IMG/VR virus record: IMGVR_UViG_3300046740_000358
Span: 11,173 to 75,172 of that record
Length of the DNA stretch: 64,000 nt
DNA from: a virus
Strand: one strand, 5' to 3'
Positions 7,601 through 62,812 of the stretch are shown here, in pieces. Positions within the stretch are counted from its first letter, which is position 1; each line of letters opens with the position of its first letter. The notes beneath the pieces are model-generated. The model saw nothing but the letters and a program-made list of their open reading frames with translations, was not told the DNA's origin and did no database searches. Position numbers and translations under genes: made by a program.

Positions 7601-7995
7601 GTGATGGGTCCTTTCGGTTGGTCGTCTTGACGTGGAGGGATGGGCGGACGGCGGCGCTCGACTCCGACGTCTCGCATGGTGGTGCGACGGTCGGGCCCGA
7701 AATAGAACTCGTGCCCCCCCAAGCGGATCCAGAAGGAGACGGCACAAAGCGCCCAGTCTCCCCGCTTGCTGGCGATGCACGTGGGCAGCCGGCCAACCTC
7801 GAAGGTGGAGGTCGGCGCCGGCGCGTCGATGACGACGGCGTCCACGCCGCACTTTCGGAAGCACGTTGACGGCGCGGACGTCGGCGTCTGGTCGCCATCC
7901 TCTTCGAACGGCTCCTCGAGGAGATCGTCCGACGGCAGATTGGTGCCATCAGGGACAGTGATCGGGTCGTCCTGGAAGTCGTCGGGCTTGGTCAT
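7597..7995 (-). CDS. hypothetical protein with acidic N-terminus and Cys motif
   Basis: 132-aa ORF with ATGA overlap to the downstream gene. Confidence 0.5.
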   Translation of the reverse strand: MTKPDDFQDDPITVPDGTNLPSDDLLEEPFEEDGDQTPTSAPSTCFRKCGVDAVVIDAPAPTSTFEVGRLPTCIASKRGDWALCAVSFWIRLGGHEFYFGPDRRTTMRDVGVERRRPPIPPRQDDQPKGPIT

Positions 7996-40335: not shown

Positions 40336-42279
40336 CTAGCCTCGGCCGTTGATTACGACCATGGCCACGCGAACGTCGGTGCCTTCGCTGCGAAACGATC
40401 CCGGGGGGAGTGGGCGGTACGAACCGCCGCACTCCTCAATCAGCGGCGCGAACGCCTCGCGACGCCCGGGCCCGTCGGCGCAGAGCGCGACCAGCCGGCC
40501 GTCGGGCTTGAGGAACGTATGCGCGTGAAGAATGTGCGCGATGTCCGCGCCCCGCACGAACGGGGGGTTCATGACGACCCGATCAAACCGTGCCAGCGCC
40601 ATGCCTCCGCCGGACACGCCGACGCTCGTGCTCAGGAAGTCCTCGACCACCACCGTTACGGCAAGGTGCCTCGGCAGCGCATGCGCAACGCTCGCGTTGA
40701 TCTCGACGGCTACCACCTCGGCGGCCTGCCCTCCGCCCGTGCGCGCTTGCTCGGCGTCGCCGATGGCCTCGAGGATTCGTCCCGTGCCCGCGCTGGGCTC
40801 GAGGACACGCATCCCCGGCCCGATGTCCGCGATCTCGACCATCCGCGCGGCCAGGGGGGCGGGGGTCGGGAACAACTGCGGCGCGCTGACCACCGTGACG
40901 CCGGCCTTCATGGACTGCTCGATGGCCTTGAACGGTGCGGCGGCGGCGTCCCGCTCGGCGCGGGCTGGCGCGGTCGCTGCGCGGTCTGCGGCGCGCTGTT
41001 CCAAGCGGGCCAACTCCTCGCGCGCCGCGCGGTCAACTTCACGCGCATGGTGATCGGCGCGCATCTTGGCTTCCTCGGCGCCCGGCTTGTCGTGCTTCTT
41101 TGAGTCGGTCAGATAGACGGCCGACTGCCCGTAGCCTACGCCGCTCACCTCAACGGCAGCGGCGCCACGCGCGGCCATGATGCGGCGCAAGGGGGAGTTG
41201 CAGACGATTCGGATCCGGTGCGTGCGGCACTCTGACAGCCGCGTGCCCTTGTAACTCGGGTCGACCTTGGCCAACTCCGCCTTGGTGACGCCGATCGCCG
41301 GCTCGCGGACAACGTCGCGGCCATACAGATACGCCACCTCGCCCGAGTAGTTGAGGATCGGCAGGTCTGACTTGGTCTTCGGCTTTGGGGGCGGCGTCCA
41401 CCCGGACTCCCCCAGCATGGTGCGCTCGTACGCGATGCGGTTCGTCAAGTGCTCGATCCACCGATTCGTGCTGGACTCCGGGTCCAGCGTTCGCCCAGCG
41501 TTCGCCAGCACGGAAGCGGCGGCCCACTTCTCGTCAACGATCCCGTCTTCCAGCGCCGACCACAGGCTCATGTCCCCTTCGTACTGCGATGCGGGGGGCT
41601 GGCGGGGGAACTCGGCCAGCGGAAAGCGTCGCGAGAAGTGGTTCATGTTTGCCAGCGCCAGCGCCTGGGCCTTGGTCAAGCCCTCTTGCGACCACGCCTT
41701 GACCGTCGCCTCGGCCTTGGCAATCGCTCGCTGGTACCCGCGGAGCTCGGCCTCGAGGGTCTTGATCCGCCGCGCCCGGACGGCCGGGAGTTCCTTGTAT
41801 TCGGCGTGCGCCAGCGCGGCGGCAGCTCGGCCCGTCCAGTAGGTCGACGTCTTCCACATCTTCACGGCCTTGGCCATGCCGCTCTGAATCCGTTCGGCGT
41901 CCTTCCGGGCCTTCCGCTCGGAGTGGTGACCGACAAGGATCGGCTGCCCGAACTCGAACCGCTTGGACACCTGTTCGACCTGGCGGCGGGCCCCGTCGGC
42001 ATCCGCCGCGCGGCGCTCGCTGTAGCCGTCGAACCGATCCGCGCGTGCCTCGGCTCGCTCGGCCAAAGTGGTGCTCTCGTCTTCGAGATCGTCTTGCCCC
42101 GACAGTTCGAGTGCCAGATCTTCGCGGGCGGGCGACCACACCGCATAGAAAACCTCCTGCTTGGGTGCCCACCCGTATCCCAGCGCCTTGACCCGCTGGT
42201 AGGTCTCGGTGTCGAGCTTCGCGCTGGCGCTGATTCGGATCTTGTCGTCGGCGGGGTCGTACGTTGCTGAAATGATCAT
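40336..42279 (-). CDS. DUF3560-domain protein fused to class I methyltransferase
   Basis: ATYDPADDKIR, FGQPILVGHHSERKARKD, then QLFPTP, VLEPSAGTG and VVMNPPF. Confidence 0.85.
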   Translation of the reverse strand: MIISATYDPADDKIRISASAKLDTETYQRVKALGYGWAPKQEVFYAVWSPAREDLALELSGQDDLEDESTTLAERAEARADRFDGYSERRAADADGARRQVEQVSKRFEFGQPILVGHHSERKARKDAERIQSGMAKAVKMWKTSTYWTGRAAAALAHAEYKELPAVRARRIKTLEAELRGYQRAIAKAEATVKAWSQEGLTKAQALALANMNHFSRRFPLAEFPRQPPASQYEGDMSLWSALEDGIVDEKWAAASVLANAGRTLDPESSTNRWIEHLTNRIAYERTMLGESGWTPPPKPKTKSDLPILNYSGEVAYLYGRDVVREPAIGVTKAELAKVDPSYKGTRLSECRTHRIRIVCNSPLRRIMAARGAAAVEVSGVGYGQSAVYLTDSKKHDKPGAEEAKMRADHHAREVDRAAREELARLEQRAADRAATAPARAERDAAAAPFKAIEQSMKAGVTVVSAPQLFPTPAPLAARMVEIADIGPGMRVLEPSAGTGRILEAIGDAEQARTGGGQAAEVVAVEINASVAHALPRHLAVTVVVEDFLSTSVGVSGGGMALARFDRVVMNPPFVRGADIAHILHAHTFLKPDGRLVALCADGPGRREAFAPLIEECGGSYRPLPPGSFRSEGTDVRVAMVVINGRG

Positions 42280-43330
42280 GAAAGCCTCGCGATCGTGAGA
42301 AACGCCGCCGCTGCGGCGTGGAGTCGTTGGTTGCTGTGCGGCTGCGGACAGAAAACATCGTGCCCGCCTGTCAACACCTGGATAACCTCCGTCGCGGCGG
42401 CGTGGTTCGCCTCCAAGGCTTCTCCTGCGATCTTCAATACCCACGCCTCAAGCTGCGCACGCGGCATCATGAAATCACCTCGGCTAGTTCTCGGCGCGCG
42501 TCATTGTGACACCGCTTCGAAGATCTCCAACAACTCGGCCCGCACCGCCTCCAGCCGTTGGAGCCGCGATCGGTGTTGGTCGCGCGCCATGGGGAACGCC
42601 GTGTCGCCGAGGGGGTAGTAGTCGCGCGCGTTCGGCGAGCACTCGGCCACCGCGTCGATCGCCAGCCGGACCGCGCCCTCGGCCTTCGCCAATTGCGATT
42701 CAAGCTCGTCGCGCGACGTGCCGTTGAGATGGACCATCGGCGCGATCCCGCCCACCGGCATTCCCGACCCGTCGACGACGTAATAGGTGTCTCCGGTTGA
42801 TGCCGCCATCCGCCCCGCCATCGCGCGAGCTTCTCCCAGATCCGTCGACTCGTGGACCGTCCTATCGCCGCGCTGGCGATTCCCGCGCTTCACGAAGTAT
42901 TCGCCCGTTAGCATTTCTCGACCTCCGAACACGTCGGACGGTGGAACCGCTCGCCGCCGCACTTCGTGCAGGCATAGCCGCCGACTACGCCGCAGATCGT
43001 GCAAGACCCCGTCTCGTCCACGCCACCCGCTACCGCGCAGTCCCCATCTGTGGTGTGCTGGACCGTCGCGGGGACCTCGGTGGTCGCCAATTGGTGACCG
43101 CACGCGCCGCATCGATAGCCGACGACGTGACAGATGTCTGCGCACGTTTCGGTTTCTTCGTAATCCCATTCCAACGGCTCGGCGCTATTCACCGTGATGT
43201 CCTGAGATGCGCCGATTAGTTGCTCCTCCACGAGATCTGATCCGATCACGTCGATGCCACACCCCGGGCACGTGTCCGGGAGTTCCATCTCCACCTCGGT
43301 AACGGTGACCTTGTCCATCTTGATCTTCAT
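42276..43330 (-). other. three small early-region ORFs (42276-42470, 42501-42914, 42908-43330 Cys-rich)
   Basis: RBS and coupled junctions; VHLNGTS...PNARDYY in the middle ORF. Confidence 0.55.
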
Positions 43331-44418: not shown

Positions 44419-45482
44419 TTACGGATATGTGTAGCCAAGTACCTTGCGGATCTGACGCTTGAACACCGCGCGTCGCGCGCTCGTCATTCCGTCGACGTTC
44501 GATCGTGCGGCGGCGAGCGCCTCTATCGCTGCGTCAATCTCGCGCGTCGCGCTAGAGCCGACCCACCTATTGCCGCCTCGGACGGCGGCGCGTGCGACGC
44601 GTATCGCATTGCGCGCATTTTTCAACCATTCGAGCGTTGCCTTTGTTGCGATCTTGTCCACGTCAGACCTCCACTTGCGCGTCGTGCGCGGCTAGAAATT
44701 GCTCCCAAAGTTGAAGCTTCAACTCGTGCCAGAAACCGAGAACGGCCTTCCGTGACAGCGCGCGGAGTCGGTTCGGATTCTTGCGGCAAGCCATGCCGCG
44801 CATCATTCGAACCACTGCGCGATACGAGAGACCCGTTCGGAATGCCGAGTATCCCGGCACCCCCCCTCCCCATTTCGCGTCCCTGTAAGCGTCTCGCTTG
44901 CTCACGGACCGCTTGCGTGCGCCCGTCATCGGCGGACCTTTCGCTTGTACGGTCCGACCATGACCCCCCCATCGACCCCCTCGCCCGTAACGGCGTCCAC
45001 TGCCGGAAAGTGCCGAATGTCCAGACACCCCGCCTCTGCTACGCGCTCTGAGAATGCGTTTCGCTCTGCGATCGTCGCAAATACCGCGTGATAGTCGGCC
45101 GGACCCATGTCTCCGCTATTCCACGACACCCCGAAACCGTTAGCCTCCGATGTCATCGGCGGACCTTCCCTTTGCACGCGGCGCAGAGCGATTCATCTAC
45201 CTCCGCCGCTTGCTTGCCGCACCCGTCGCAATCGTGAAACGGTTCACCCGTCCTTGCGTCAATCCCGCGTGCCGTCGCGAACGCCACGATCGCGCGGCGC
45301 AATCCCTTCGCCGTCCCACCTACGGACGGAAAGAGCACCCCAGCCTGCGCGGCGTATGCCCGCGCGCGACGCATTCCCTCGGCCCTCGACACGCCCTTGT
45401 CCATGCCCATCTCGCCCGTAGCGTGTTCGGTCCAAGAGAAAGCATCCTGCAAAACCAACCGGAGATTTGTCGTCGTCGCCAT
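44419..45482 (-). other. four small first-transcribed ORFs (44419-44661, 44663-44929, 44926-45156, 45153-45482)
   Basis: ATGA-coupled chain downstream of a near-consensus promoter. Confidence 0.55.
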
Positions 45483-56709: not shown

Positions 56710-59700
56710 CTATCGGCCCGGCGGGGGATATTCGATCGGAGTTTCTTCGGAATTCGACGACGGCGCCTCCGCCGTCCCGCCCGCCTTGGGCGCTGGCGTG
56801 CCGTCGCACATGCCTCGCGATGCTTGTACGTTCCTGCGGGCAGTGTCTTCCCAAAACCAGTACCACCACGCCATGCACCGTTCCCGTTCCTCCTCCACCG
56901 CCTCGGCCACGCGGGTATCAATCTGCGCCGTCCGCTCGCCCGCCCGTGAGGTCCATTCCGCCAAGTCATGCTCCAGCCGCTCCGCCGTCGAGTGAGCAAT
57001 CTTGGCCGCCTGTTCGTGGTCGCGCGCCTCGCGTTCAAGTAGGGCGACCTTGCGGGTCAGTTCGTCGTTCGACACTTCGAGACCATGGATGATGGCGTCG
57101 CGGGTGGTCAGCTGCGACTCAAGAATACCGATCGTGTCGTCGAGTTGCTGCGCCCCTTCCTCAGCGAAGTTCAGTCGGTCGGCGATGTCAGCGAATTGTC
57201 GCCTCGCTTCGTCGCGTTCGTCCGTGAGACCGGCGACGCGTTCACGAAACTCCTTCGTAACCTTGAAGTCGGCTTCACGTTGGCGGTCGGCCGCGTTCGC
57301 GTCGTCGTCGCGGCCTTGCTCCTCGGCTTCAAGTTGAGCCTCCAACCCGGCCGTGCGCTCCGTGAGACTGGCGACGCGGGCTTCGAGGGTGGCGAATTGC
57401 TCCCTGGCCTCACTGAGCGGCGTGGGGTGTCCAAGGTCCTGGTCGCACTCGGAATAGCCGCAGCGTCCGCCGCACTGGCACGGCGCAACGGGCGTGGCGG
57501 CTATAGCGTGAACGGCTCGTCCATCAGCGATCTTGGAACCCGTCGGACCTTCCGTAGATACGCGAGCACCTGCCGTATGGCTTTCAGGTCCCGAAGCATT
57601 CGCGCCTTCTCTTTCTTGGTCATTGGGTCCTTTCGCGGGCGTGGCGGCTGGCTCGGCGATGGGCGCATCCTTCGCGAGTCCACCAAATCGCATCGAACCC
57701 ATGCCGCCCACGTCGCGTGACTTGCGCTCCTCAAGGATTCGAGGCGCGACGCGAGCGCGGGCGGCGATTAGATCGGCCTCTACTCGGAGATATCCTCGAA
57801 CTTCAAGAGGTAGTGCTTCTTCGGAATGAAGACCCCGTGAGCGCCCTGGTTCGTTATGGACATCTCGATCTTTCCGCTCGGTGTCGCCTCCGACCATGAG
57901 GCATTCCCCGGGCCGCTCGCCGCCGTGAACTCCACCACCTCCTGGTTGTACTCGTTCTTCTTCACGCTCGTGCATCGGAACTTCGCCTGAATCGTCATCT
58001 TCGGTCCTTTCTGTTGGTCGTTGTTCGGTCGGTTGCGAATCTACCGGCGCGCTCGGCTCGGCGATGGGCTCCAAGATGTCGAAGCACCCAGCGTTCCACC
58101 ACGGCACGAATGCTGGCGACCTATGCGCCCAATTCACCTGCATTGGTGCGTCCATCGGACGATCTTCGCGCCGGTCGCGCGGCTGCCCTCCGACGAGCCT
58201 AGCCAGCACGATCCACGTCCCCCTCGGCGGGACCTCAACCCCCGGCCCGCTCCTCCCGACCACGCGGTGACCAGCCGGCGCGCTCGGCTCGGCTGCCTGC
58301 TTTTTACAGTTGCACCACTCCGGGCGAGTCTCGCCGCAGTTTGCGCACCTCGGCTGCTCGGCTGCCTGCTGGACCGGGGCGTCCTTCGCTTCGTTTCGCG
58401 CCCGGGTTCGGCAGAACTCGGTGCAGAAACATGGGTGCTCGTCTCCGCTATTTTCCGGCTTGAAGCAGGCTGCCCATTTCTCCCCGCCGCGCCCGGTGCA
58501 GTGGCGGTCGCCCGAGACGCCAACCTTCCCGCACCCATCCTTGCACGGCCCGCTCGGGTTGAACCCATCGGCCCATCGGCCGTCGGCGTGGCGGACGATG
58601 CGATAATGCGCGCGGTGAAATCGTTTCTCGCCGGCCAGTCGAACGGGGTCCTCGGTGCCTGTCGCCCAGCGACGAACAGACCCCGCACGACAACGCTTCG
58701 ACCACGAGGCAACGACCGTGCCCGCATCTGGCTCATCACGTCCGACGACCTCCGGAACTTCCCCCGTCGGCACGAACCGCGACCAGTCGACCTCCTCGGC
58801 GGGCTGGACGGGGACCAGCGCGCCCATCTCGACGGCGTGACGAGGGCAGGCGGCGCGTTCGTTGTTGGAATGCATGTAGGGCGAAGCGGCCACGCAGTCA
58901 GCGCGGCCCGTTCCCGTGCCTTGGTCGTATCCGTGGAAACACTTCCAGTGGTACGGGGATTGAAGGCGCCACCCCTCGCCCAAAACGAACCCATCGGGCA
59001 CGCCGCCAGTCGACGGGGGCTCCGGGCGATCGCACTTCATGGCGGCCCGGCGCTTCTGGATACGGTACCACTCTTCGGTTCCGTAGTGCGGGCGATACGA
59101 GCAATTCCCGGCGACGCATCCTTGCTCGGGCGTCGACCTGAGTGGCCAACCGCAGATTTCGCACTTGAACGGTTGCTCGGCTGCCTTCGTCTCGACTGCG
59201 CACCAGCCACAACCGGGGCACTTCGGTTGCTCGGCTGCCTGCTGGACATGCCCGAACCCATCGCACGGGCACCCCGAATCGCCGTCGCCCATGCAAGGCC
59301 CATTGCCCGCCTGGGAATGGTCGAATCTGTAGTGAGAACAGAATGCGCACGCTGCCCTGGCCGGCTCGGCTGCCTGCTGGACCGGGACCAGGGCGCCCAT
59401 TTCGACGGCGTGAGCGGCGCAGGCTCCGTGGACGCTGGTCCAGGCCGTCGCGGCTTTGCCGCAGTAGTATCGCGCTGGAAGATCTACGACGAATCCACAT
59501 ACCTGCGTATATCCAAGGCCCGCCTCCCACCCGCTTCCCAAGACGAACCCATCGGGCACGCCGCCAGCCGACGTGGGTTCCTTTTCCGGTGTCGTCGGTT
59601 GCTCCTTGGTAATCTCCCATGTCCTGCCGTCGATAGAACGGGCGTGGCAACCGGCGCAGACGATGAATATGCCGTCCTGTCGATGGACCGACGGGGGCTC

Positions 59701-60444
59701 CGGGCGAGACGGGGCGGGGGGATGCCAACTACACACGTAGCCTTCGCCGGGGTGACGGGCGACTTTCTGACAACCGGGGCACGGCTCTCCGGGGTGCTGC
59801 GGATGGTCGGGCATCGCCAACGCCGGCTCGACCTTGGGAGACGAGGCGGGCGTGTTCTTGAACCCGGGTAGGAACTGAACTCCGACGGTGTGCTCGACAG
59901 CCGGCCGCCACGTCAGTCCGCAGTTCTGGCACGAGTGCGTGTGGTGTGGCTTCGTCGCGAATTCCCCTTCGTCGATATGAAGCGTGCTGCACGTCGGGCA
60001 CGGGATACGCATCGGTATCGCCGAGGGCTTCGCCTGCTCGACCTTGGGCTCGGCGGGGCGGATACAGACGCCAGCGTCGCGACATTCCTTCGACGTGAAG
60101 TGCTGGCGCCGCGCCGTACGAAAGCACCTGGTCGGAAATTGGCAGTAATGCCCGTTCATCTCCAGGTCTTCGGTGTCGAGACGGCTCCCGCATTCCGGCG
60201 AGCACGTCGCCCCCGTCGTCGGTTGCGGCGGGTCGACCCGCGCGAGCCTAGACGTTTCCGCGCTGACGCGGTCAAGCAGCCGGTCAACTCTCGCCAGGTC
60301 ATACGGCTCACCCCCCGCGTCTCGCTTCGGGAGCGCCGCGAGGAAGGCGCTCACTGTCGCCCAGTTGACGTCTACCCACGCTGAGCCAACCGCGCGTAAT
60401 AGCGCCGCCTTGAAGTCGTCCACGCTGTACCGTCGGTCATTCAT
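56710..60444 (-). CDS. 1244-aa mosaic protein of Cys/His-rich modules with C-terminal coiled coil
   Basis: AGGAG RBS before MNDRR; repeated linkers QQAAEQP, GGVPDGFVLG, HAVEMGALVPVQ, RPEPPS, PKVE, PIAEP and AATP. Confidence 0.7.
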   Translation of the reverse strand: MNDRRYSVDDFKAALLRAVGSAWVDVNWATVSAFLAALPKRDAGGEPYDLARVDRLLDRVSAETSRLARVDPPQPTTGATCSPECGSRLDTEDLEMNGHYCQFPTRCFRTARRQHFTSKECRDAGVCIRPAEPKVEQAKPSAIPMRIPCPTCSTLHIDEGEFATKPHHTHSCQNCGLTWRPAVEHTVGVQFLPGFKNTPASSPKVEPALAMPDHPQHPGEPCPGCQKVARHPGEGYVCSWHPPAPSRPEPPSVHRQDGIFIVCAGCHARSIDGRTWEITKEQPTTPEKEPTSAGGVPDGFVLGSGWEAGLGYTQVCGFVVDLPARYYCGKAATAWTSVHGACAAHAVEMGALVPVQQAAEPARAACAFCSHYRFDHSQAGNGPCMGDGDSGCPCDGFGHVQQAAEQPKCPGCGWCAVETKAAEQPFKCEICGWPLRSTPEQGCVAGNCSYRPHYGTEEWYRIQKRRAAMKCDRPEPPSTGGVPDGFVLGEGWRLQSPYHWKCFHGYDQGTGTGRADCVAASPYMHSNNERAACPRHAVEMGALVPVQPAEEVDWSRFVPTGEVPEVVGRDEPDAGTVVASWSKRCRAGSVRRWATGTEDPVRLAGEKRFHRAHYRIVRHADGRWADGFNPSGPCKDGCGKVGVSGDRHCTGRGGEKWAACFKPENSGDEHPCFCTEFCRTRARNEAKDAPVQQAAEQPRCANCGETRPEWCNCKKQAAEPSAPAGHRVVGRSGPGVEVPPRGTWIVLARLVGGQPRDRREDRPMDAPMQVNWAHRSPAFVPWWNAGCFDILEPIAEPSAPVDSQPTEQRPTERTEDDDSGEVPMHEREEERVQPGGGGVHGGERPGECLMVGGDTERKDRDVHNEPGRSRGLHSEEALPLEVRGYLRVEADLIAARARVAPRILEERKSRDVGGMGSMRFGGLAKDAPIAEPAATPAKGPNDQEREGANASGPESHTAGARVSTEGPTGSKIADGRAVHAIAATPVAPCQCGGRCGYSECDQDLGHPTPLSEAREQFATLEARVASLTERTAGLEAQLEAEEQGRDDDANAADRQREADFKVTKEFRERVAGLTDERDEARRQFADIADRLNFAEEGAQQLDDTIGILESQLTTRDAIIHGLEVSNDELTRKVALLEREARDHEQAAKIAHSTAERLEHDLAEWTSRAGERTAQIDTRVAEAVEEERERCMAWWYWFWEDTARRNVQASRGMCDGTPAPKAGGTAEAPSSNSEETPIEYPPPGR
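57501..57623 (-). CDS. nested 40-aa ORF in alternative frame
   Basis: GAAAGGA RBS; MTKKEKARMLRDLKAIRQVLAYL; bounded by 14-bp direct repeats. Confidence 0.5.
   Translation of the reverse strand: MTKKEKARMLRDLKAIRQVLAYLRKVRRVPRSLMDEPFTL
57780..57998 (-). CDS. nested 72-aa phage-type protein in alternative frame
   Basis: GAAAGGA RBS; AKFRC..ATPSGKIEMSITN..F..K.Y..F, a motif I recall from stand-alone phage genes. Confidence 0.65.
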   Translation of the reverse strand: MTIQAKFRCTSVKKNEYNQEVVEFTAASGPGNASWSEATPSGKIEMSITNQGAHGVFIPKKHYLLKFEDISE

Positions 60445-60568: not shown

Positions 60569-62812
60569 CGGTCGTCCCCTTGTCGCTCGCGTCGGCCAGG
60601 AAGGTCGACGTGTCAATTTCTATTGTCGTCATTCCCGCGTTGAACCGCCATCGATACAGCAGCCCGCGCGCCGCTTCCAACTTCACCGCGAGCGCTCCGT
60701 GCGCAAGGGCAAAGATGTCCCGTTCGGCCTTCGCGGCGGCGAGATCGTCGGCGAGTCGAACGATGACGTTCGACACCACCTCGTGCCGCCACTCCCAATC
60801 CTCGCGCAGGCCCTCGCGTGCGGAAGTGACAACGGCGGAAACAAGTCCAGGGTCCTCGTCCGTCGGGCGGCTCATCGCGCACCGCCGAATCGAATCTCAT
60901 ACGTCCCGTTGTGCATCGACGCGGCGACCACGCCCCAGAAGTACCCGCACATCCACTCCCAACTCACCTCCCACCCCGCGACCAAACGCCGAACGGGCCG
61001 ATCTCCCATCGCTTCGTCGTGCTCATTTCGCTGCCCTCGCCTTCGCCAGTGATACGCCCTCCGGGTGCCCCTTCTTTCGCGAACCGTAGAACACGCGCCG
61101 CTTTCGCATCGGCATCGCGGCCAGTTCCTTGGCGACGCCAGGGTCGGATATCGACAGCATCGAAGAACGGGCGCTCTCCATGGACCGAACGGCTGCGCGC
61201 TTCTGCGGCCTATCGGACGGCGCCTCTGCCAACGCCGCTGCCAGATCGGGGCTTGCGTACAGGTGACCTCGTGAGTCCATTATCGTTTCGCCTTTCCCGC
61301 CCCGGGGCGCTTCGTGGGTTTCGTTGCCTGGTCGATGGTCGTGATGGCCTGGTGCCACCAGTCCCCCGTCTCGAATCCCTTCTTCGACCGGAAGTAGCGG
61401 TTCAGTTCCCGCAGCGCAGGCGCGATGGTGCGGCGGATTCGACGGCGCTCATCGTCGATGCCCACCACGAATCCCTCCGCGTAGTCGGGGCCTTCTTCCG
61501 CGCGGAGGCCCGCGACCAAGTCGCGTCGGCGCTTGTCGTCGCTCATTTCGTCCTGGCCTTTCTCGCGTTGACGTGGTCGACGTTCGCGACCTCGCATCGG
61601 CTGTTTTTGTCATCCCAGACGCTCAGCGGACCGCCCCATGCAAACTGGTTGAAGTGCTGCCCTGTCTCGCCGCTGTCACGGCACTTAAACCGAAAGTGGC
61701 CATCGCCAAGCGGCGCGAAGTCGATCAAGTGAACCGGACGAGGAGCGAGCTTCATCATCTCGCCTTTCTCGCCCCGGGGCGCTTCGTGGGTTTCGTTGCC
61801 TTGCAAACGAACGCGCGGCACGATGGGGCGCCGCAGTGAAAATGTTCAAGAGGAAAATCGAACGGACGTTTGCAGTTAGGGCACGTCTCGCGGTCCGGTT
61901 GCTTCGCCGGGCGCTTCGTGGGTTTGGTTGCCGAGTCGATGGCGTCCATCAGGGCGACCACTGCGGGGTAGGCGCGGTTCCAGGGTCGCTTGCTGTCTGC
62001 GGCTCCCCTCGCATTCCCCAGCGCGGGCGCGATGGCGAGGCGGATTTCCTTGGTGGCCTCCTTGCGGCCGTGCGCCACGCCTTCGTCGAAATGCGCCTTC
62101 TTCCATCGGCTGTACGACTCGGCGTTGAACGGCTTGTTGTCGAGGTTGCGCAGGTCGGTCGGAATTGTCGTGGACGTCATCCCGCAGAGGCAACTCGGAA
62201 TGGACAGTCCCGGCTCCCTCGGACGCTCGCCGCAAGCGTCGCACCGACCGTGCACGTCGAGGCGCTGGCCGAATGGACCGCGTTCGCATTGCTTCGTTGC
62301 CATCAGCCGCCCTCCTTCGCCCGCGCGTCTATGTTCAGCAGCCAAGCGAGCGCGTCTGCGCATCTGATAACCATTGCCGTTCGCTCGATCGGACAAGGAA
62401 CCGTGCGTGACATGTTGCGCGCCTCCCGTGAAACCTCGGCCCAAATGCCCGCCTCCGCCGCCGCGCGGTCGCCGTCGATGGGCGGGACGGCGGGGCGCCC
62501 GGTATTGCGGCACGCATCGGTATCGAACCACGTAAACGGGCCGCCTCGCTCCAATGGCTCCAGCACGAAGCAATGCTCACCGCGCGGAGGCAACTCGCCG
62601 GTACCGCACCACGGTCTGCATTCTGACTTCGCCGGCTCAGCTAGGCCGCGCTGGCAGAGGGCTTCTATGTAGCCCCAGGCCACGTCGGAGTTATGCGCAA
62701 GAGGAGGCGGAACGACGTCTGACTTCGACCCCCGGTATCGTCGATGCATCCGCGCCGACTCCACATCAGCCAGCAGTTCCTTCAGCGCGAGACGCGCGGG
62801 GTCGGTGCTCAT
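60561..62812 (-). other. chain of small ORFs (60561-60875, 61023-61280, 61280-61546, 61543-61758, 61755-62303, 62303-62812)
   Basis: Coupled junctions; shared ATKPTKRP ends. Confidence 0.55.
61288..61932. repeat. 42-bp direct repeat (61288-61329, 61760-61801; partial 61909-61932) encoding ATKPTKRPG
   Basis: Read directly; one mismatch between the two long copies. Confidence 0.85.

What the first reader, a model, noticed from the sequence alone, without database searches (positions are those of the whole stretch)
57489..58069. Two complete genes with their own RBS nested out-of-frame inside the mosaic ORF
Seen: 57780..57998 (72 aa) and 57501..57623 (40 aa) each have a GAAAGGACC RBS like stand-alone genes here (cf. 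upstream of 7600 and 53523). They lie in a different frame from the host ORF, whose translation over them looks like off-frame text (ERTEDDDSGEVPMHERE). Each sits between direct repeats; for the 40-aa gene the cassette is essentially repeat-RBS-ORF-stop/repeat, 147 bp. Inference: whole genes were captured as cassettes into a coding sequence without breaking it, creating same-strand dual coding.
Basis: partly seen in the sequence, partly recalled or inferred. Interest (0 to 1): 0.75.

Follow-up and report, generated by a model that had tools for sequence, protein, structure and literature searches.

The report
Two small genes nested inside phage gene
In a soil phage, a long modular gene carries two small extra genes, each with its own ribosome-binding site and read one base out of step, without being interrupted; this rare gene-in-gene layout was published in 2025 only for selfish nucleases, and standard annotation mishandles it.

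Summary
The window is a 75-kb soil phage contig. On the minus strand a 1244-codon ORF (60444..56710) runs through two complete small ORFs in the +1 frame: 72 aa (57998..57780) and 40 aa (57623..57501). Each follows a GAAAGGACC Shine-Dalgarno. One sits between 15-nt exact direct repeats (spacing 405) and the other between 14-nt repeats (spacing 147).

Codon statistics switch frame at the cassette borders. The 72-aa ORF is a real gene: 311 homologue clusters, mostly stand-alone 70-80 aa proteins, and AlphaFold pLDDT 95.8. The 40-aa ORF has only its SD and codon bias in its favour.

The outer ORF is not a chance join. Four related contigs carry its HAVEMGA module and its coiled-coil tail (ERERC...DGxPAPK) in one ORF. 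Here the C-terminal domain has no SD-led start of its own. Two relatives have an HNH-AP2 endonuclease gene at the equivalent linker, and there it splits the gene.

Openness alone is weak evidence (about 15% by chance in this phase). Translation is untested and no empty-site allele was found.

It is a new variant of a known kind (ShiLan hidden HNH, 2025; Rz1 in Rz). This scan has noted similar nested small genes on other phage DNA before.

The parts
56710..60444 (-). Outer ORF, 1244 codons. AGGAG lies 7 nt before ATG 60444, and the stop is at 56712-56710. It is a string of modules: N-terminal region, Zn-ribbon, two HAVEMGA modules, Cys-rich mini-modules separated by Q/A/E/P linkers, and a C-terminal coiled coil.
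   Evidence: Family comparison.
59851..60030 (-). Zn-ribbon module in the outer frame (IPMRIPCPTCSTLHIDEGEFATKPHHTHSCQNCGLTWRPAV..FLPGFKN). It occurs as a stand-alone 65-130 aa protein on more than 100 other contigs.
   Evidence: 53-85% identity.
59365..59580 (-). HAVEMGA module, copy 1 (GGVPDGFVLGxGW...HAVEMGALVPVQ), outer frame.
58807..59022 (-). HAVEMGA module, copy 2, outer frame.
58275..58293 (-). Linker L0 (AEPSAPAG). It shares 19 nt exactly with L1. The next 231 nt are module A, which is 63% identical to L009 in frame.
58044..58069 (-). Linker L1 (PIAEPSAPV). Its first 15 nt are repeat R1, upstream copy (58069-58055). Its last 19 nt are identical to L0.
57999..58043 (-). A/C-rich leader and SD (AGAAAGGACC, 58012-58003) of the 72-aa gene. 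ACGACCAAC-N-GAAAGGACC matches the leader of the gene at 7615 in 19 of 20 positions.
57780..57998 (-). 72-aa gene in the +1 frame of the outer ORF. It encodes a small all-beta protein of an unnamed, widespread phage family.
57703..57765 (-). 63-nt imperfect hairpin just 3' of the 72-aa gene, with no U-tract. It lies in the 115-nt stretch 57779-57665, whose frame signal is ambiguous.
   Evidence: z -2.2 for the 141-nt stretch folded; frame score -6.7.
57636..57664 (-). Linker L2 (PIAEPAATP): R1 downstream copy (57664-57650) directly followed by R2 upstream copy (57649-57636). Together with the preceding AKDA it is the homologue of the family linker PAKGAPAEP.
57624..57635 (-). SD GAAAGGACC (57634-57626) and a 4-nt spacer in front of the 40-aa ORF.
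57501..57623 (-). 40-aa ORF in the +1 frame. The peptide is basic (pI 11.3) and looks helical. No homologues were found, so it is a candidate gene only.
57489..57502 (-). R2 downstream copy (linker L3, AATPV). It overlaps the TAG stop of the 40-aa ORF.
56710..57488 (-). C-terminal domain in the outer frame: a CQCGGRCGYSEC motif, a coiled coil, and the tail ERERCMAWW...DGTPAPK. There is no in-frame ATG/GTG/TTG between 57693 and 57345.

Best explanation
The outer ORF belongs to a hypervariable, modular family of phage genes. Its P/A/E-rich linkers are encoded by short DNA repeats.

At the last linker, just before the coiled-coil domain, two stretches of foreign DNA were gained. One is 405 nt and carries a complete, older, widespread 72-aa gene with its own leader and SD. 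The other is 147 nt and carries a 40-codon ORF with the same SD. Each is bounded by a duplicated piece of the linker.

The likely route (inferred, not shown) is short-homology recombination by the phage's own RecT/RecE pair.

Both inserts are multiples of 3 and lie in the one phase that is usually stop-free in this GC-rich genome. So ribosomes that start at 60444, or at a weak internal start near 57700, can read through them. They would add about 184 hydrophilic, linker-like residues and still make the conserved C-terminal domain, which has no start of its own.

The inner genes would be translated independently from their SDs.

Shown: the anatomy, the frame signatures, the reality of the 72-aa gene, and the single-gene ancestry of the outer ORF.

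Inferred: the recombination route, the read-through, and expression of the 40-aa ORF.
For: - The frame signature switches exactly at the cassette borders.
- Frame scores of 41.7 (72 aa) and 15.1 (40 aa) are typical of true frames. Only 1.0% and 2.6% of wrong-frame windows reach them.
- The 72-aa protein has 311 homologue clusters, mostly aligned end to end with 70-80 aa proteins.
- It keeps all conserved residues of the family alignment and folds at pLDDT 95.8.
- It stands alone in varied contexts in isolated phages.
- In L001, L004, L007 and L008 the HAVEMGA module and the ERERC...DGxPAPK coiled-coil tail lie in one ORF of 273-469 aa, with variable modules between conserved linkers.
- The window's AKDAPIAEP aligns at DNA level with the family linker AKGAPAEP.
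- Module A is conserved in frame in L009.
- There is no stop at the end of the N-terminal part and no SD-led in-frame start after the cassettes.
- The repeats are exact and local, and all seven within this ORF keep the frame.
- RecT-like (E 2.9e-72) and RecE-like (E 8.6e-61) genes are present in the same genome.
- In L002 and L009 an HNH-AP2 gene is inserted at the linker after HAVEMGA(I/L)V, so this family accepts gene insertions.
- The outer-frame translation of the inserts is hydrophilic and E/G/R/P/A-rich.
Against: - There is no expression data of any kind.
- No empty-site or cassette-bearing relative was found. The closest contigs end before the site.
- Given the phase, the open outer frame is not improbable: 27% x 55%, about 15%. 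In the phage's own genes 24-49% of 73-184-codon windows are open in this phase.
- The 40-aa ORF has no homologue.
- The C-terminal similarity to relatives is short (BLASTP E 0.046 pairwise) and rests mainly on two motifs.
- 14-15 nt of homology is short for RecT-type recombination.
- The source gene caller did not call the long ORF.
Confidence: 0.6

Rival explanations
1. The insertions are real but they killed the gene. The outer ORF is a fresh pseudogene or truncated product, and its remaining open across both inserts is coincidence. Only the inner genes, and perhaps the N-terminal modules, matter.
For: Openness given the phase has about 15% probability. The hairpin after the 72-aa gene could be polar. 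The outer gene has lower GC3 than the genome average. The finding was picked from a very large scan, so coincidences will turn up.
Against: For random phase and length I estimate roughly 0.2-0.7% that both inserts are in frame and stop-free. The C-terminal domain keeps a strong coding signature and the family motifs. Where an insertion does break this gene in relatives, the downstream half has acquired its own coupled start. Here it has none.
Confidence: 0.22
2. Chance read-through: the region is really four or more separate genes that happen to share an open frame, as often happens in GC-rich DNA.
For: The genome is 66.5% GC and long spurious ORFs are common. The source annotation called a 72-aa and a 327-aa protein and nothing of 706 aa or more.
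Against: The coding signature is in this frame for about 3.2 kb on both sides. The conserved Zn-ribbon, HAVEMGA and module A homologies are in this frame. Relatives have the N- and C-terminal parts in one ORF. The upstream part has no stop and the downstream part has no SD-led start.
Confidence: 0.06
3. The inserts are removed after transcription or translation (group I/II intron, intein, or long-range translational bypass between the matching repeats), so the mature protein lacks them.
For: The identical repeats at both ends of each insert resemble take-off and landing sites or splice junctions. Precise removal would restore ...PIAEPAATPVAPCQC... in frame.
Against: No Rfam family matched, introns included, even at E up to 1. 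No intein or other Pfam domain was found in the outer translation. At 147 and 405 nt the inserts are too small for an ORF-bearing intron and far beyond the about 50 nt of known bypassing (own knowledge, T4 gene 60). The inner ORFs have their own SDs.
Confidence: 0.03
4. Sub-claim rival: the 147-nt unit is just another in-frame linker module, and the 40-codon ORF with its SD is not an expressed gene.
For: No homologue in the phage records or the ESM Atlas. The SD spacing is short (4 nt). GC3 is only about 0.72. 2.6% of wrong-frame windows reach its frame score.
Against: The 9-mer GAAAGGACC is identical to the one in front of the 72-aa gene and the gene at 7615. By my own composition estimate about 0.5 copies of it are expected in the whole genome, against 3 counted in the window. 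The frame score of 15.1 lies within the true-frame range. The outer-frame text over it is low-complexity.
Confidence: 0.3

Closest known systems
ShiLan domain: hidden out-of-frame HNH endonuclease insertion in actinophage DNA methylase genes (Arsenault, Gosselin, Gogarten 2025, PMC11855218; Gosselin et al. 2023, PMC9957025)
   Same: A complete gene lies in a shifted frame inside an insertion in a phage gene. The host frame has no stop through it, and no intron or intein features are found. The host protein is presumably translated straight through.
   Different: In ShiLan the passenger is a homing nuclease that explains its own mobility, and no RBS is detectable. Here the passengers are a 72-aa non-nuclease protein and a 40-aa ORF. 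Both have strong SDs, they lie in tandem, and they are bounded by 14-15-nt duplicates of a linker in a modular non-enzymatic gene.
Embedded overlapping phage genes, e.g. lambda Rz1 inside Rz in the +1 frame (Kongari et al. 2018, PMC6139136); overprinting in viruses (Sabath et al. 2012, PMC3494269)
   Same: Same-strand +1-frame gene with its own start, wholly inside a longer gene. Both are expected to be translated from one mRNA.
   Different: Overprinted genes arise de novo inside an older gene and are usually functionally tied to it. Here the inner gene is the old, widespread one, and the outer reading over it is the new, signature-less one.
Free-standing homing endonuclease insertions that split phage genes ('genes in pieces'; Edgell, Gibb, Belfort 2010, PMC2988022)
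   Same: A foreign gene is inserted into a phage coding sequence. This is seen directly in this gene family in L002 and L009.
   Different: Those insertions end the upstream half with a stop and give the downstream half a new start. In the window the host frame stays continuous.
Morons (Hendrix/Juhala; own knowledge) and polyvalent multi-domain phage proteins (Iyer et al. 2017, PMC5512222)
   Same: A small accessory gene is found at varied genome positions in different phages. The host gene strings together modules that stand alone elsewhere.
   Different: Morons sit between genes with their own promoter and terminator, and none was found here. No enzymatic or anti-defence domain was detected in the outer protein.

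Membership tests
Out-of-frame nested insertion element (ShiLan type) | The host reading frame has no stop codon through the insertion | tested here: met
   135 + 49 outer-frame codons without a stop.
Out-of-frame nested insertion element (ShiLan type) | Complete ORF with start and stop in another frame inside the insertion | tested here: met
   both are in the +1 frame, with ATG, a stop and an SD.
Out-of-frame nested insertion element (ShiLan type) | Insertion-free alleles of the host gene exist | tested here: inconclusive
   Distant relatives (L001, L004, L007, L008) have one continuous ORF with no frame switch. No close empty-site allele was found.
Out-of-frame nested insertion element (ShiLan type) | The passenger is an HNH or other homing endonuclease | tested here: not met
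   No Pfam hit. The fold is a small beta protein with only weak OB-fold (SSB-like) resemblance.
Overprinted embedded gene (Rz1 type) | The inner gene is the evolutionarily younger one, restricted to the host-gene lineage | tested here: not met
   The inner 72-aa family has 311 clusters, mostly stand-alone. The outer frame over it lacks a coding signature.
Unnamed 72-aa small-protein family (weak match to the C-terminal end of phrog_6978) | Full-length alignment with the conserved A5 K6 N32 W35 T39 P40 G42 Y63 | tested here: met
   pLDDT 95.8.
HAVEMGA-module / coiled-coil modular phage gene family (defined here) | GxPxG(Y/F)xLxxGW...C..HAVEMGA(I/L)V module upstream of a coiled coil ending ERERC...DGxPAPK, in one ORF | tested here: met
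   The module is present twice (E 1e-8 and 4e-5). The tail match is short (E 0.046) but collinear.
Group I/II intron or intein | Ribozyme core or Hint/splicing motifs | tested here: not met
   no Rfam match; no Pfam domain.
Moron | Own promoter and terminator, located between genes | tested here: not met
   no sigma-70-like promoter or intrinsic terminator in the cassettes, which lie inside a gene. The consensus scan is weak evidence for an unknown host.

The most novel reading that the evidence does not exclude
The repeated linker-coding DNA of this gene family acts as a set of recombination landing pads. Through them the phage's RecT/RecE system captures whole neighbouring or foreign genes into a growing modular gene. 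Only frame-preserving, stop-free captures survive, so nested out-of-frame genes are intermediates on the route by which giant multi-module phage proteins absorb small genes.
Probability: 0.2. Interest if true: 0.75.

Novelty: new variant of a known kind. Interest (0 to 1): 0.55.

Why it matters
If the read-through is real, one stretch of phage DNA makes three proteins, and non-selfish accessory genes can settle inside another gene without splicing. Until now this has been published only for hidden HNH nucleases.

It also shows a concrete annotation failure. The source gene caller kept the 72-aa gene and a 327-aa tail, and no protein of 706 aa or more is on record for this ORF. So the upstream 2.4 kb in this frame, including a highly conserved Zn-ribbon module, seems to have gone uncalled.

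The locus gives a testable model for how modular phage genes gain parts at linker repeats. The relatives that carry a gene-splitting HNH-AP2 insertion serve as a natural contrast.

Tried and rejected
- Close relatives or empty-site alleles: none for the N-terminal part, the C-terminal part, the neighbouring ATPase or module A in viral contigs. None for module A or the HAVEMGA module in genome contigs.
- The metagenome scan gave only distant family members.
- Sequencing runs: one DNA holder, probably the source sample, kept as contigs only. No variants or joints were seen, and no RNA holder is listed.
- 40-aa ORF: no homologue in the phage records (E up to 10) or the ESM Atlas (best score 0.77). 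The DUF6221 hit (E 0.099) was rejected as noise.
- 72-aa family: no Pfam match, no PDB sequence match, and no significant Foldseek match.
- Alignment A1 was too diverse for the search for related loci.
- Rfam: nothing. Promoter and terminator consensus scan: nothing in the cassettes.
- Stop avoidance in the outer frame as a sign of selection: not significant.
- Plus-strand ORF 58064-58270 and inner-frame ORF 58739-58134 (SD GGAGGT): set aside, because the codon likelihood favours the outer frame there. The opposite strand was not scored, and the antisense ORF shares its third codon positions with the outer frame.
- Similarity of the outer protein to P0154 and P0186 beyond the Zn-ribbon: none.
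Full report
**Context.** The window is part of a 75,172-bp single-contig virus record. It comes from a soil metagenome, has 66.5% GC, and nearly all genes lie on the minus strand with GC3 of about 0.85. Around the finding are a HerA-like ATPase, a D12 Dam-type methyltransferase and many small genes of unknown function. RecT-like and RecE-like genes lie at the left end of the genome.

**Observation.** Read on the minus strand, the layout is as follows.
- The long frame encodes ...CFDILE-PIAEP-SAPVD....
- An A/C-rich leader ends in AGAAAGGACC, followed by 6 nt and then ATG 57998.
- The 72-codon ORF ends at TAG 57780.
- 115 nt follow, containing a 63-nt hairpin.
- Then come PIAEP again and AATP, then GAAAGGACC, 4 nt and ATG 57623.
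- The 40-codon ORF has a TAG that overlaps a second AATP copy.
- The long frame then continues VAPCQCGG... into a coiled coil.

The repeats are exact: 15 nt at spacing 405 and 14 nt at spacing 147. They occur nowhere else in the window without mismatch. GAAAGGACC occurs three times in the window, always just before an ATG on the coding strand. The 72-aa gene's leader matches that of the gene at 7615 in 19 of 20 positions.

**Which frames code.** I trained a codon model on 20 of the phage's own genes.
- It assigns the long ('outer') frame from about 60456 to 58060.
- It assigns the +1 ('inner') frame from 58056 to 57780.
- The outer frame returns weakly for the 115-nt stretch.
- The inner frame takes over from 57672 to 57500.
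- The outer frame is strong from 57480 to 56800.

The inner-versus-outer score is 41.7 for the 72-aa ORF. That is typical of true frames, and 1.0% of wrong-frame windows reach it. For the 40-aa ORF it is 15.1, the 16th percentile of true frames, reached by 2.6% of wrong-frame windows.

**The 72-aa gene is real.**
- A full HMMER scan of 1.84 billion representatives found 311 clusters at E up to 1e-3. Most are 70-80 aa proteins aligned end to end at 40-52% identity.
- The alignment has a clear consensus, and this copy keeps every conserved residue.
- AlphaFold gives pLDDT 95.8 for a four-strand beta protein. It has only weak resemblance to OB folds of SSB proteins.
- There is no Pfam or PDB sequence match.
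- In isolated phages it is a stand-alone 'hypothetical protein' in unrelated contexts: in the baseplate module of Rhizobium phage PPF1, and after Rz in Escherichia phage Fraca. That is how a mobile accessory gene behaves.

**The 40-aa ORF is only a candidate.** It has the strong SD and the codon bias but no detectable relative.

**The outer ORF is a real, single gene.**
- Its residues 139-198 are a Zn-ribbon module, 53-85% identical to more than 100 small stand-alone proteins.
- A roughly 70-aa module (GGVPDGFVLGxGW...HAVEMGALVPV) is present twice.
- Searching with that module recovered a family in soil viral and metagenome contigs.
- In L001, L007, L008 and L004 a single ORF of 273-469 aa carries, in order:
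  - an N-terminal CxxC plus coiled coil;
  - the HAVEMGA module;
  - the linker KVEPPAEQPA;
  - variable Cys-rich mini-modules;
  - the linker PPAPA(K/Q)GAPAEPLSAR;
  - a coiled coil;
  - the tail ERERC...DG(R/K)PAPK.
- The window's ORF ends ...ERERCMAWW...DGTPAPK.
- Its AKDAPIAEP aligns codon by codon with the family's AKGAPAEP.
- L005 matches residues 468-704 at 35% identity. L009 matches AEPSAP plus module A at 63%.

So the parts on either side of the cassettes belong ancestrally to one gene. The N-terminal part has no stop. After the cassettes there is no in-frame ATG/GTG/TTG until 57345, and none with an SD. The conserved C-terminal domain can therefore be made only by ribosomes that cross at least the 40-aa cassette in the outer frame.

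**A natural contrast.** In L002 and L009 an HNH-AP2 homing-endonuclease gene sits right after HAVEMGA(I/L)V. There the family gene is split: the upstream half gets a stop, and the downstream half has a new ATG of its own, which in L002 overlaps the nuclease stop as ATGA. So this family does accept gene insertions at its linkers, and the usual outcome is 'genes in pieces' (PMC2988022). The window shows the other outcome.

**How surprising is the open frame?** The outer frame starts on the third position of the inner codons, where T is rare.
- In the phage's own genes, 49% of 73-codon windows and 66% of 40-codon windows are stop-free in that phase.
- Synonymous resampling of the two inner proteins leaves the outer frame open in 27% and 55% of trials. 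The other shifted phase was never open, and the inner ORFs' own frame ends at their stop codons.
- So openness as such is not evidence of selection.
- What needs explaining is that both inserts are in the one permissive phase and are multiples of 3. From these numbers I estimate 0.2-0.7% for random insertions.
- Either only frame-preserving insertions survived, or the units moved between family genes already adapted to the frame.

**Mechanism (inferred).**
- The linkers share halves in a staggered way. L1 consists of the first 15 nt of L2 plus the last 19 nt of L0. L2 consists of R1 plus R2. L3 carries R2.
- All seven close repeats in this ORF keep the frame.
- Elsewhere in the genome, small genes also share junction or initiation sequences.
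- With RecT/RecE on board, recombination at short linker homologies is the most economical route. I cannot tell whether the event was a one-repeat circle integrating or an exchange with a donor gene of the same family that already carried the 72-aa gene.
- 14-15 nt is short for this chemistry, and no donor or empty site was found.

**Comparison and novelty.**
- The layout was published for hidden HNH nucleases in actinophage methylases (PMC11855218, PMC9957025). Embedded +1 genes such as Rz1 are classical (PMC6139136).
- This scan has also noted small SD-led genes nested in giant phage genes on other DNA.
- The differences here are these:
  - the passengers are not nucleases;
  - they have strong SDs;
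  - two sit in tandem at one linker;
  - the host is a modular non-enzymatic gene;
  - relatives show the alternative, gene-splitting outcome.
- I rate it a new variant of a known kind.

**Caveats.**
- There is no expression evidence.
- Only one sample holds the sequence, although two assemblies of it agree.
- The C-terminal homology rests on short motifs.
- The 40-aa gene is unproven.
- The dead-gene rival remains at about 0.2.

Noticed in passing
L002:8204-8755 and L009:377-886: An HNH-AP2 homing-endonuclease gene is inserted directly after the HAVEMGA(I/L)V motif of the family gene. It splits the gene into two ORFs. In L002 the downstream half starts at an ATGA overlap with the nuclease stop, and only about 5 nt (ATCGT) are repeated at the junctions.
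   Followed up: partly
L012:812-3025 (genome bases before the window): Adjacent RecT-like (E 2.9e-72) and RecE-like (E 8.6e-61) genes. A DnaB-like helicase lies at L012:5284-6915.
   Followed up: partly
window 59851-60030: A Zn-ribbon module (HIDEGEFATKPHHTHSCQxCG..WRPAV) is 53-85% identical to small stand-alone proteins on more than 100 contigs. Sources variously name them rubredoxin or DUF1610. Here it is fused inside the long ORF. Its function is unknown.
   Followed up: partly
window 58000-60444: For this ORF the protein collection holds only the 72-aa and a 327-aa (57693..56710) protein from this contig, and nothing of 706 aa or more. The upstream 2.4 kb of the long ORF therefore seems to be uncalled in this frame.
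   Followed up: partly
window 44925-44951 and 45152-45178: Two ATG start regions 227 nt apart share a 16-nt exact initiation region (AAGGTCCGCCGATGAC on the minus strand). It is related to that of the 72-aa gene (74% over 27 nt).
   Followed up: no
window 61282-61338, 61754-61810, 61909-61942: Three copies of a 32-50-nt repeat (32 nt exact) at spacings of 472 and 132 nt in a region of small ORFs. It may be a repeated junction or regulatory element.
   Followed up: no
I confirmed only the repeats themselves.
   Followed up: partly
window 57703-57765: A strong 63-nt imperfect hairpin directly after the 72-aa gene, with no U-tract. Its 3' arm overlaps the ATG codons (57702, 57693), one of which the source gene caller used for the 327-aa protein.
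   Followed up: partly
window 40336-42444: A 702-aa protein whose C-terminal 200 residues match segments of giant (1,200-3,900 aa) phage proteins annotated as DNA methyltransferases. It looks like a piece of a polyvalent protein.
   Followed up: no
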